From Candidatus Freyarchaeum deiterrae (GTDB taxonomy: Archaea > Asgardarchaeota > Jordiarchaeia > Jordiarchaeales > Jordiarchaeaceae), in assembly GCA_037305845.1 (NCBI GenBank), contig CP147778.1, forward strand, positions 1,792,001-1,856,000: DNA of 64,000 nt, read 5' to 3'. The notes beneath the pieces are model-generated. The model was not told the DNA's origin, made no database searches, and worked only from the letters and a program-made list of their open reading frames with translations. The position numbers and the translations under genes are program-made. Shown here piece after piece: positions 11,826 to 14,613 of this stretch (its first letter is position 1; every line of letters starts with the position of its first letter).

Positions 11826-12119
11826 GCCAACAAATTAAACTAACCATAACCATATAAATATCATTTTTCGAAGCAAGTATTTAACGAAATCATCTTAAAC
11901 TATCTATTAGAAATTATAAACTGAACGCTCAAAATCATAACACAATCTCAATTACAAAGTAAAGCCTTTATAATTTAAAAAACATTAAAATTTTCCTAAA
12001 ACAGCACAAATACAGGCATAAAAACAAGGATTGCTGTTACGAAAGCAAAAAATTTATCTAATATTAACTGCAACTAACTACCACAACTCTTTGCGTCAAA
12101 TCCATAAAAATAAAGGTAT

Positions 12120-12286
12120 GGGCCCGTAGCTCAGAGGAATAAACTAATACTTCCGAGAAACCTGGTAGAGCGACAGAATTCTGCCAGAAAATCGTCGAAG
12201 CTCATATGTAACGCTGAGAAACCTGTTGGTCCAGGGTTCGAAAGAGCTTTATCAGTAAAGCTCCGAACATCCCTGCGGGCCCACCA
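12120..12286 (+). tRNA. tRNA with CAT anticodon, most likely tRNA-Ile2 (agmatidine), with four BHB introns; CCA encoded
   Basis: Introns 12135-12160 (15/16), 12177-12199 (30/31), 12207-12220 (37/38) and 12243-12269 (59/60) leave a 77-nt cloverleaf. The GGGCCCG/CGGGCCC acceptor with A73 resembles archaeal Ile tRNAs more than Met tRNAs. Confidence 0.9.
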
Positions 12287-12877: not shown

Positions 12878-13165
12878 TTGCAAAACCCGCCACCAAAACC
12901 GGTTGATCCTGCCGGACTTGACCGCTATCGGGCTGAGACTAAGCCATGCAAGTCGTACGTTTCAGGCCACGCTGAAACGTGGCGTACTGCTCAGTAACAC
13001 GTTGTCAATCTGCCCTCAGGACAGGGACAACCTCGGGAAACTGAGGATAATCCCTGATAGGTGACACGGCCTGGAATGGTGTGCCCCCTAAAGGACTCAA
13101 TGGCATGCTCATTGACGTCGCCTGAGGATGAGACTGCGTCTGATTAGGTAGTTGGTGGGGTAGAG

Positions 13166-13255
13166 GTGTAACACCCCAAAAAACCAATACAACAACTAGA
13201 GTGCCCACATCACAAATTGGACATTCAGTAGTATTGGCGGGATGTCCCACTACAA
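13166..13255 (+). other. 90-nt BHB intron in 16S helix 11 (~E. coli 265/266), no ORF
   Basis: Clean BHB: GGTGGG/CCCACC outer helix, GTAG/CTAC central helix, bulges AG|G and AA|G. Splicing restores GGTGGGGTAGAGGCCCACC. Confidence 0.9.
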
Positions 13256-13324
13256 GCCCACCAAGCCGATAATCAGTACGGGCCACGGGAGTGGTAGCCC
13301 GGAGATGGGGACTGAGACAAGGCC

Positions 13325-13355
<31 letters not shown>

Positions 13356-13719
13356 ACTCCGCAATGCACGAAAGTGTGACGGGGCCAGCCCGAGTGCCAA
13401 CTGAAAATGTTGGCTTTTCACCCGCGCAAATAGCTGGTGGAATAAGGGGAGGGCAAGGCTGGTGCCAGCCGCCGCGGTAAAACCAGCTCCTCGAGTAGTC
13501 AAGACGATTATTGGGCCTAAAGCGTCCGTAGCCGGCTTAGTAAGTCTCTGGTCAAATCTAACGGCTCAACCGTTAGGCTGCTAGAGATACTGCTAGACTC
13601 GGAGGCGGGATAGGTCGAGGGTACTCTCAGGGTAGGGGTGAAATCCTATAATCCTGAGGGGACCACCAGTGGCGAAGGCGCTCGACTGGAACGCGCTCGA
13701 CGGTGAGGGACGAAAGCCA

Positions 13720-13774
<55 letters not shown>

Positions 13775-13854
13775 AAGTGTTAGGGCGGCCACGAGCTGCC
13801 CTAGTGCTGGAGGGAAGCCGTTAAGTCCACCGCCTGGGGAGTACGGCCGCAAGG

Positions 13855-13896
<42 letters not shown>

Positions 13897-14317
13897 AAGC
13901 CTGCGGTTTAATTGGACTCAACGCCGGAAATCTTATCGGGAGCGACAGCAGCATGAAGGCCAGGCTGATGACCTTGCCTAACGAGCTGAGAGGAGGTGCA
14001 TGGCCGTCGCCAGTTCGTGCCGTGAGGTGTCCTGTTAAGTCAGGCAACGAACGAGACCCTTGTCCTTAGTTGCCAGCGGGACTTCAAATAGTTGCCGGGC
14101 ACACTAAGGAGACTGCCATCGATAAGATGGAGGAAGGTAAGGGCCACGGCAGGTCAGTATGCCCCGAATCTCCCGAGCCACACGCGGGCTGCAATGGCTA
14201 GGACAATGGGTTCCGACATCGAAAGGTGAAGGTAATCCCCCAAACCTAGTCTCAGTTGGGATCGAGGGCTGTAACCCGCCCTCGTGAACATGGAATCCCT
14301 AGTAATCGCGTGTCATC

Positions 14318-14375
<58 letters not shown>

Positions 14376-14424
14376 CGAGTTTGGATGAAACATAATCCTT
14401 CGGGTTGTGTTAAATCCTGGTTCG

Positions 14425-14494
<70 letters not shown>

Positions 14495-14500
14495 AACCTG

Positions 14501-14613
14501 CGGCTGGATCACCTCCTTCGAAGAAAACGGGCTTATAGTTAGTCCAGCTTGTGCGTATATGGGTTTTTGGGCTTTCTTTTGTTCTATTGTTTTTTTCTTT
14601 AATGGGTTTGTTT
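14501..14613 (+). repeat. R1: native 16S 3' end plus processing strand and trailer (source of the direct repeats)
   Basis: Re-occurs at 41337-41446, 42687-42791 and 44139-44203. Confidence 0.9.

What the first reader, a model, noticed from the sequence alone, without database searches (positions are those of the whole stretch)
12120..12286. Four-intron tRNA(CAT), likely Ile2, with near-textbook BHB motifs
Seen: introns at 15/16, 30/31, 37/38 and 59/60 with central helices GCTC/GAGA, CGAC/GTCG, CTCA/TGAG and TTCG/CGAA and 3-nt bulges. The exon containing the anticodon is only 7 nt (12200-12206). The outer helix of the 37/38 BHB is complete only after the 30/31 intron is removed, which implies a splicing order. 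With tRNA-Pro, tRNA-Tyr and 16S, the window holds 12 insertions in four stable RNA genes, while 23S shows none.
Basis: partly seen in the sequence, partly recalled or inferred. Interest (0 to 1): 0.7.

Follow-up and report, generated by a model that had tools for sequence, protein, structure and literature searches.

The report
Four-intron isoleucine tRNA, already published
This is a real gene for the isoleucine tRNA that reads AUA codons, split by four small introns in an Asgard archaeon, but the same gene with the same four introns is already listed in the supplement of the 2024 paper describing this genome.

Summary
Exons 12120-12134, 12161-12176, 12200-12206, 12221-12242 and 12270-12286 join into a 77-nt cloverleaf with anticodon CAT and an encoded CCA. 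Five orthologs in the same class have almost identical exons but carry one, two or four introns at exactly these junctions.

It is tRNA-Ile2, not tRNA-Met:
- It shares its acceptor stem, D-stem and discriminator with the genome's tRNA-Ile(GAT).
- The genome has a separate elongator tRNA-Met and an initiator tRNA.
- TiaS is present.
- AUA makes up 42% of Ile codons.

The genome encodes a two-subunit, crenarchaeal-type splicing endonuclease that keeps the loop lysine linked to cutting non-canonical introns.

Only the 59/60 intron is a strict hBHBh' motif. The splicing order (30/31 before 37/38) is favoured but not forced.

Novelty is low. The window lies in the complete Freyarchaeia genome of Valentin-Alvarado et al. 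2024 (PMC11291895). Its Supplementary Data 4 lists this gene as Ile2-CAT with identical intron coordinates, along with other four-intron tRNAs.

Earlier notes of this scan report BHB introns in other genes of this genome, but not this tRNA.

The parts
12047..12059 (+). Promoter-like A-rich stretch plus TTTATCT (BRE/TATA-like). Its function is inferred.
   Evidence: AAAAAATTTATCT lies about 60 nt upstream of the gene. The same motif (AAAAA[A/G]TTTAT[C/T]T) sits upstream of all five orthologs although the flanks are otherwise unrelated.
12120..12134 (+). Exon 1, tRNA positions 1-15 (5' acceptor strand, 5' D-stem strand, A14, G15)
   Evidence: Identical in all six genomes.
12135..12160 (+). Intron 1 at 15/16, 26 nt. 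Relaxed motif: 3-bp central helix plus a G.A mismatch, 4-bp inner helix, no outer helix.
   Evidence: Found only in the two genomes of this genus. Published coordinates 1804135-1804160.
12161..12176 (+). Exon 2, positions 16-30
12177..12199 (+). Intron 2 at 30/31, 23 nt. Central helix CGAC/GTCG 4/4, 3-bp outer helix G22-G24:C32-C34, no in-register inner helix.
   Evidence: The G006 ortholog has a 15-nt intron at the same site with a compensatory CGGC/GCCG helix.
12200..12206 (+). Exon 3, positions 31-37 (GCTCATA), a 7-nt micro-exon carrying anticodon CAT
12207..12220 (+). Intron 3 at the canonical 37/38 site, 14 nt. Central helix CTCA/TGAG 4/4, 2-bp inner helix. The outer helix is the anticodon stem and is complete only after intron 2 is removed.
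   Evidence: The G009 ortholog has a 21-nt intron at the same site.
12221..12242 (+). Exon 4, positions 38-59
12243..12269 (+). Intron 4 at 59/60 in the T-loop, 27 nt. Strict hBHBh': central helix TTCG/CGAA 4/4, inner helix of 8-9 bp, 5-bp outer helix (the T-stem).
   Evidence: It forms in the MFE fold of the whole precursor. Present in all six genomes, with different inner-helix sequences.
12270..12286 (+). Exon 5, positions 60-73 plus the encoded CCA (12284-12286)

Best explanation
Window 12120-12286 is the single-copy gene for tRNA-Ile2(CAU), the AUA decoder, in the complete Freyarchaeia (GTDB class Jordarchaeia, Asgard) genome. Its 167-nt transcript carries four introns. The archaeal splicing endonuclease most likely cuts each one in the two 3-nt bulges of a bulge-helix-bulge motif, and an RNA ligase then joins the exons.

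The endonuclease appears to be a two-subunit (alpha2beta2) enzyme. Its catalytic subunit keeps the crenarchaeal-type loop lysine associated with cutting relaxed, non-canonical motifs.

Introns 1 and 4 can be cut independently. Introns 2 and 3 flank the 7-nt anticodon exon, and their motifs compete for nucleotides 32-34. They are therefore most likely removed one after the other, probably intron 2 first. After splicing, TiaS would convert C34 to agmatidine so that the tRNA reads AUA as Ile.

Shown here: the junctions, the motifs, the ortholog series, and the presence of the enzymes. Inferred: the actual cleavage, the order of splicing, the modification and the charging.
For: Gene and junctions:
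- Spliced cloverleaf.
- Junctions are confirmed by orthologs with identical exons and 4, 4, 2, 2, 1 and 1 introns at the same sites.
- Compensatory change in the 30/31 central helix and differing inner helices at 59/60.
- BHB pairing far above chance.
- The published tRNAscan-SE and R2DT annotation is identical.

Ile2 identity:
- The acceptor stem matches Ile(GAT) at 6 of 7 positions and eMet at 2 of 7, with the same D-stem and A73.
- G1:C72 excludes an initiator.
- A separate eMet (#35) and an initiator-type gene exist.
- The TiaS match is full length, 449 bits, E 9e-135.
- AUA is 41.6% of Ile codons, and no Ile-TAT tRNA is listed for this genome.

Endonuclease:
- The 211-aa paralog matches the A. 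pernix alpha subunit at 8e-43. It keeps the catalytic His (the residue mutated in 3AJV) and has K66 aligned to CSL Lys44.
- The 198-aa paralog has Ser in place of the catalytic His. It matches the N-terminal, structural half of two-domain EndA models.

Splicing order.
Against: - No RNA data were available, so splicing, intermediates and agmatidine are all unobserved.
- Intron 1's motif is weak (mismatch, no outer helix).
- The MFE fold of the primary transcript prefers a 9-bp exon 2/intron 2 helix over BHB-2.
- The TiaS score is below NCBIfam's equivalog cut-off of 600 bits.
- Four same-genus MAGs lack the gene altogether, most likely because they did not assemble this rRNA-adjacent region.
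Confidence: 0.93

Rival explanations
1. The tRNA is an elongator tRNA-Met rather than tRNA-Ile2.
For: The unmodified anticodon CAT reads AUG, and ARAGORN labels the spliced product tRNA-Met. Overall identity to eMet and to Ile(GAT) is the same, 60 of 77.
Against: - The acceptor stem, D-stem and discriminator follow Ile(GAT), not eMet.
- A typical eMet gene (#35) exists elsewhere.
- TiaS is present, AUA is the commonest Ile codon, and no other AUA decoder is listed.
- tRNAscan-SE's isotype models call it Ile2.
Confidence: 0.04
2. There is no obligatory splicing order: the endonuclease cuts all four introns independently, in any order.
For: - Alpha2beta2 enzymes cut relaxed motifs that lack an outer helix (PMC3488258).
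- Removing intron 3 first also lowers the cost of BHB-2, from +7.0 to +2.5 kcal/mol.
- With BHB-1 and BHB-4 forced, the conformers that present BHB-2 or BHB-3 differ by only 1.1 kcal/mol.
Against: - BHB-2's outer helix and BHB-3's central helix both need nucleotides 32-34, so they cannot form together.
- BHB-3 becomes part of the MFE fold only after intron 2 is removed: cost +9.7 falls to +0.9.
- Cutting both introns before ligation would free a 7-nt exon held by very few pairs (inference).
Confidence: 0.35
3. The gene is a decaying pseudogene overloaded with insertions, and is not expressed or not fully spliced.
For: It has the joint highest intron count in the published tRNA table for this genome. 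Standard finders (ARAGORN, Rfam) miss it.
Against: - The exons are identical or nearly so across an entire class while the introns diverge freely.
- A promoter-like motif is conserved upstream.
- It is single copy and is the only candidate AUA decoder in a genome where AUA occurs at 31 per 1000 codons.
- The spliced product scores 101.7 bits in tRNAscan-SE.
Confidence: 0.02

Closest known systems
tRNA #22 (Ile2-CAT) in Supplementary Data 4 of Valentin-Alvarado et al. 2024, Nat Commun (PMC11291895)
   Same: It is the same gene in the same assembly: 1804120-1804286 with introns 1804135-60, 1804177-99, 1804207-20 and 1804243-69. These equal the window coordinates plus 1,792,000. It is typed Ile2, with four introns by both tRNAscan-SE and R2DT.
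   Different: Nothing differs in the annotation. The paper's main text says only that over half of the tRNA genes have multiple introns. In the text and table I read, I saw no mention of four-intron genes, the motifs, the orthologs or a splicing order.
Multi-intron tRNAs of Thermoproteales (Sugahara 2008; reviewed by Kanai 2015, PMC4390854)
   Same: BHB-bounded introns at canonical and non-canonical positions in one tRNA, in a lineage with an alpha2beta2 endonuclease.
   Different: That review gives 'up to three introns', whereas this gene has four. The host here is an Asgard archaeon from wetland soil, not a hyperthermophilic crenarchaeon.
Three-intron nuclear tRNA-Ile(UAU) of the red alga Cyanidioschyzon merolae (PMC3728597)
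   Same: Introns in the D-arm, at 37/38 and in the T-loop. RT-PCR showed that the outer introns are removed before the 37/38 intron, and the order correlated with BHB stability.
   Different: It is eukaryotic and has three introns. Its order was shown experimentally, whereas the order here is only inferred from structure and energy.
Aeropyrum pernix alpha2beta2 EndA with the Crenarchaea-specific loop (PDB 3P1Z, 3AJV; PMC3488258)
   Same: Separate catalytic and structural subunits. The catalytic subunit aligns end to end at E 8e-43, with the His conserved and the loop Lys44 equivalent present as K66.
   Different: The structural subunit here resembles the M. jannaschii enzyme more closely than the A. 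pernix beta subunit. Assembly and specificity are untested.

Membership tests
Archaeal BHB (EndA-dependent) tRNA introns | Removing the intron restores a canonical cloverleaf | tested here: met
   Orthologs that lack individual introns read straight through the same junctions.
Archaeal BHB (EndA-dependent) tRNA introns | Two 3-nt bulges separated by a 4-bp helix, with cleavage after the second bulge nucleotide | tested here: met
   Introns 2, 3 and 4 have 4/4 Watson-Crick pairs. Intron 1 has 3 pairs plus G.A, a relaxed form. The chance rate for 4/4 is 0.46%.
Archaeal BHB (EndA-dependent) tRNA introns | Flanking outer and inner helices (strict hBHBh') | tested here: inconclusive
   Fully met only by intron 4. 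Intron 3 meets it after intron 2 is removed. Intron 1 lacks the outer helix and intron 2 lacks an in-register inner helix.
Archaeal BHB (EndA-dependent) tRNA introns | Cleavage by EndA and ligation demonstrated | not testable with these tools
   No RNA data or enzyme assay was available.
tRNA-Ile2 (agmatidine-dependent AUA decoder) | CAU anticodon on an elongator body that is not initiator-like | tested here: met
   G1:C72 and anticodon stem ACAGG/CCUGU. The initiator-type gene lies elsewhere.
tRNA-Ile2 (agmatidine-dependent AUA decoder) | Body resembles the genome's tRNA-Ile rather than its elongator tRNA-Met | tested here: met
   The acceptor stem matches Ile(GAT) at 6 of 7 positions and eMet at 2 of 7, with the same D-stem and A73. 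Overall identity does not discriminate.
tRNA-Ile2 (agmatidine-dependent AUA decoder) | TiaS encoded in the genome, and AUA codons in use | tested here: met
   Full-length TiaS match, 449 bits. AUA is 41.6% of Ile codons.
tRNA-Ile2 (agmatidine-dependent AUA decoder) | Isotype-specific covariance model scores Ile2 above Met | not tested
   Not run here. The published tRNAscan-SE 2.0 call is Ile2 at 101.7 bits.
tRNA-Ile2 (agmatidine-dependent AUA decoder) | Agmatidine at C34 and charging by IleRS | not testable with these tools
   Needs mass spectrometry or an aminoacylation assay.
Alpha2beta2 splicing endonuclease | Two separate genes, one catalytic and one structural | tested here: met
   Exactly two PF01974 hits. 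The 211-aa paralog keeps Tyr, His and Lys. The 198-aa paralog has Ser in place of His. The two map to the C- and N-terminal halves of two-domain EndA models.
Alpha2beta2 splicing endonuclease | Crenarchaea-specific loop with the substrate-recognition Lys (A. pernix K44) | tested here: met
   Gap-free alignment of YGQPLGIRKPKSPQF to the A. pernix loop, with K66 opposite K44 (role of K44 from PMC3488258). This is sequence-level evidence only.
Alpha2beta2 splicing endonuclease | Heterotetramer assembly and broad substrate specificity | not testable with these tools
   Needs biochemistry or a structure.

The most novel reading that the evidence does not exclude
The tRNA-Ile2 gene of Jordarchaeia records stepwise intron gain at fixed hot-spot sites. 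The 59/60 intron is in all six genomes. A 30/31 or a 37/38 intron was added in different lineages, and all four are present in the Freyarchaeum genus. In the four-intron form, the two motifs flanking the 7-nt anticodon exon are mutually exclusive, so splicing must be sequential and the micro-exon is never free at both ends. That would be a built-in ordering device, not just a difference in motif stability.
Probability: 0.4. Interest if true: 0.45.

Novelty: already known. Interest (0 to 1): 0.25.

Why it matters
Four introns in one archaeal tRNA exceeds the 'up to three' given in a 2015 review (PMC4390854). The most interrupted tRNA here is also the only candidate decoder for the genome's commonest Ile codon, so translation depends on four accurate splicing events per molecule. 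However, the gene and its introns are already on record, so the finding itself adds nothing new.

- A natural series of 1, 2 and 4 introns with identical exons, which could be used to study intron gain.
- A testable case of forced sequential splicing around a 7-nt exon.
- A sequence-level classification of the Asgard endonuclease as crenarchaeal-type alpha2beta2.
- Two probable corrections to the published tRNA list.

Tried and rejected
- ARAGORN and Rfam on the unspliced gene find nothing, even at E-value 10.
- Overall sequence identity does not separate Ile2 from Met: 60 of 77 against both. Only the acceptor stem does.
- Four same-genus MAGs and one same-order MAG lack even the 14-nt 3' exon with one mismatch allowed. 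I read this as an assembly gap beside the rRNA gene, not as absence.
- BLAST of the four introns, with and without flanks, found no second copy in the genome.
- Brute-force BHB splicing of the initiator gene's 5' half gave many ARAGORN-acceptable products and no unique answer.
- The insert of about 31 nt in the 16S helix-45 loop could not be assigned a unique BHB junction.
- The literature search for 'four introns' in archaeal tRNAs found no paper making that point in its text.

Full report
**What is there.** ARAGORN folds it as a perfect cloverleaf with anticodon CAT and an encoded CCA. The unspliced 167-nt gene is invisible to ARAGORN and to Rfam, even at E-value 10. The introns are 26, 23, 14 and 27 nt long and lie at tRNA positions 15/16, 30/31, 37/38 and 59/60.

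**Independent confirmation of the junctions.** The window lies at 1792001-1856000 of a closed 3.576 Mb, 40.7% GC chromosome. Searching relatives found the same gene in five other genomes of the class. Named records identify these as Candidatus Jordarchaeum and Jordarchaeia MAGs. Their exons are identical apart from two D-loop bases and position 27, but the intron content differs:
- The same-genus genome (Ca. Jordarchaeum madagascariense) has all four introns, with diverged intron sequences.
- G006 has only the 30/31 and 59/60 introns.
- G009 has only the 37/38 and 59/60 introns.
- G008 and G010 have only the 59/60 intron.

The 30/31 central helix changes from CGAC/GTCG to CGGC/GCCG, a compensatory double change. 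The 59/60 inner helices differ in sequence but still pair. Four same-genus MAGs and one same-order MAG lack the gene entirely. Because it sits 610 nt upstream of the 16S gene, I read this as an assembly gap.

**Quality of the motifs.** I scored each junction pair against the strict template: 4-bp central helix, two 3-nt bulges cut after the second base, and inner and outer helices.
- Intron 4 is a textbook hBHBh': 4/4 central, 8-9 bp inner, and a 5-bp outer helix that is the T-stem. It forms in the MFE fold of the whole precursor.
- Intron 3 has a 4/4 central helix made by nucleotides 32-35, a 2-bp inner helix, and a 1-bp outer helix that becomes the full anticodon stem only after intron 2 is removed.
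- Intron 2 has a 4/4 central helix and a 3-bp outer helix (G22-G24 with C32-C34), but no in-register inner helix.
- Intron 1 has three pairs plus a G.A mismatch, a 4-bp inner helix and no outer helix.

A perfect central helix occurs at 0.46% of random junction pairs in the window. 'Near-textbook' is therefore fair for one or two of the four. The others are the relaxed forms known from crenarchaeal tRNAs.

**Splicing order.** Intron 2's outer helix and intron 3's central helix both need nucleotides 32-34 of the 7-nt exon, so the two motifs cannot coexist. Constrained folding gives these costs:
- Forcing BHB-3 costs +9.7 kcal/mol in the primary transcript and +0.9 after intron 2 is removed, when it is essentially the MFE structure.
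- Forcing BHB-2 costs +7.0 in the primary transcript and +2.5 after intron 3 is removed.

Sequential removal is therefore well supported, and intron 2 first is modestly favoured. The reverse order is not excluded, especially for an enzyme that accepts relaxed motifs. These are nearest-neighbour energies at 37 C with no protein present. A 9-bp helix between exon 2 and intron 2 competes with BHB-2 in the MFE fold. In the same-genus ortholog it is kept, with a G-to-A change that turns a G.U pair into A-U. Its meaning is unknown.

**Ile2 or Met.** The spliced tRNA has G1:C72, so it is not an initiator. Compared with the genome's tRNA-Ile(GAT), it shares six of seven acceptor-stem positions, the D-stem and A73. 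With the elongator tRNA-Met (#35) it shares only two of seven acceptor positions. I also found an initiator-type gene at genome 1729286/1729308-1729443. It has an A1:U72 acceptor, a CAGGG/CCCTG anticodon stem and an encoded CCA. The classical archaeal trio of CAT tRNAs is therefore complete with this gene as Ile2. The genome encodes a full-length TiaS. AUA is its most used Ile codon, at 41.6% of Ile codons and 31 per 1000. No Ile-TAT tRNA is listed for it.

**The enzyme.** There are exactly two genes with the EndA catalytic domain.
- The 211-aa protein aligns end to end with the catalytic alpha subunit of the A. pernix alpha2beta2 enzyme (E 8e-43). It keeps the catalytic His, which is the residue changed in the 3AJV mutant. 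It matches the crenarchaeal-specific loop without gaps and places K66 opposite Lys44. Hirata et al. tie that lysine to broad substrate specificity (PMC3488258).
- The 198-aa protein has Ser where M. jannaschii has the catalytic His. It matches the N-terminal, structural half of two-domain EndA models, while the first protein matches the catalytic C-terminal half.

At sequence level this is an alpha2beta2 architecture.

**Already known.** The genome is the complete 'Freyarchaeia' genome (3.58 Mb) of Valentin-Alvarado et al. 2024. Supplementary Data 4 lists tRNA #22 at 1804120-1804286 as Ile2-CAT, score 101.7, with introns 1804135-60, 1804177-99, 1804207-20 and 1804243-69, four by both tRNAscan-SE and R2DT. 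The same table lists four introns by at least one of the two methods for Arg-TCT and Leu-GAG in this genome and for Lys-TTT and Trp-CCA in Atabeyarchaeia-2.

The table also shows that 15/16 and 59/60 are recurrent sites in this genome. Three other tRNAs have an intron starting 15 nt into the gene, and five others have one ending 17 nt before the gene's end, as here. Kanai's 2015 review gives 'up to three introns', so four is beyond the older literature but not beyond the 2024 paper. Earlier notes of this scan report BHB introns in many protein genes and in the RNase P RNA of this genome. I did not verify those. They make a heavily interrupted tRNA less surprising here.

**Verdict.** Novelty is nil for the gene itself. 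The new material is the ortholog series, the mutual exclusivity of the motifs around the micro-exon, the endonuclease typing, and two probable gaps in the published tRNA list.

Noticed in passing
G000:C1:1545581-1545739 (minus strand; outside the window): Published tRNA #31, listed as 'Met-CAT', is probably tRNA-Glu(CTC). From my own knowledge, its acceptor and D-arm look like archaeal tRNA-Glu. The tRNAscan junction has no BHB motif. A 16-nt intron after C34 has a perfect GGGC/GCCC central helix and gives the loop CTCTCGA. No tRNA-Glu is in the published list for this genome.
   Followed up: partly
G000:C1:1729286-1729443 (plus strand; outside the window): An initiator-type tRNA(CAT) gene is missing from the published 38-tRNA list. 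It has an A1:U72 acceptor, a CAGGG-CTCATAA-CCCTG anticodon arm and an encoded CCA. Its 5' half carries about 60-80 nt of insertions whose junctions I could not resolve uniquely. It lies just downstream of Ile-GAT #18.
   Followed up: partly
window 13166-13255: The 16S rRNA gene has a 90-nt insertion at Rfam model position 245, bounded by a strict BHB motif (4/4 central helix, 8-bp outer helix). It is very likely an rRNA intron.
   Followed up: partly
window about 14464-14495: About 31 extra nt sit inside the loop of 16S helix 45 (GGGGAA...ACCTGCGG), the loop that normally carries the two dimethyl-adenosines. No unique BHB junction could be assigned.
   Followed up: partly
window 12896-14517 and 44803-47888: The 16S and 23S genes are about 30 kb apart on the same strand, so they are not a linked operon. 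The tRNA-Ile2 gene lies 610 nt upstream of 16S on the same strand.
   Followed up: no
window 12162-12170 with 12179-12187: A 9-bp helix between exon 2 (CUGGUAGAG) and intron 2 (UUCUGCCAG) dominates the MFE fold and competes with BHB-2. The same-genus ortholog keeps it, with a G-to-A change that turns a G.U pair into A-U. Its function is unknown.
   Followed up: partly
L004, L005, L006 (orthologs in G010, G009, G008): CCA is encoded after the discriminator in this genus and in G006, but not in G008, G009 or G010, which have CTA or TCA.
   Followed up: no
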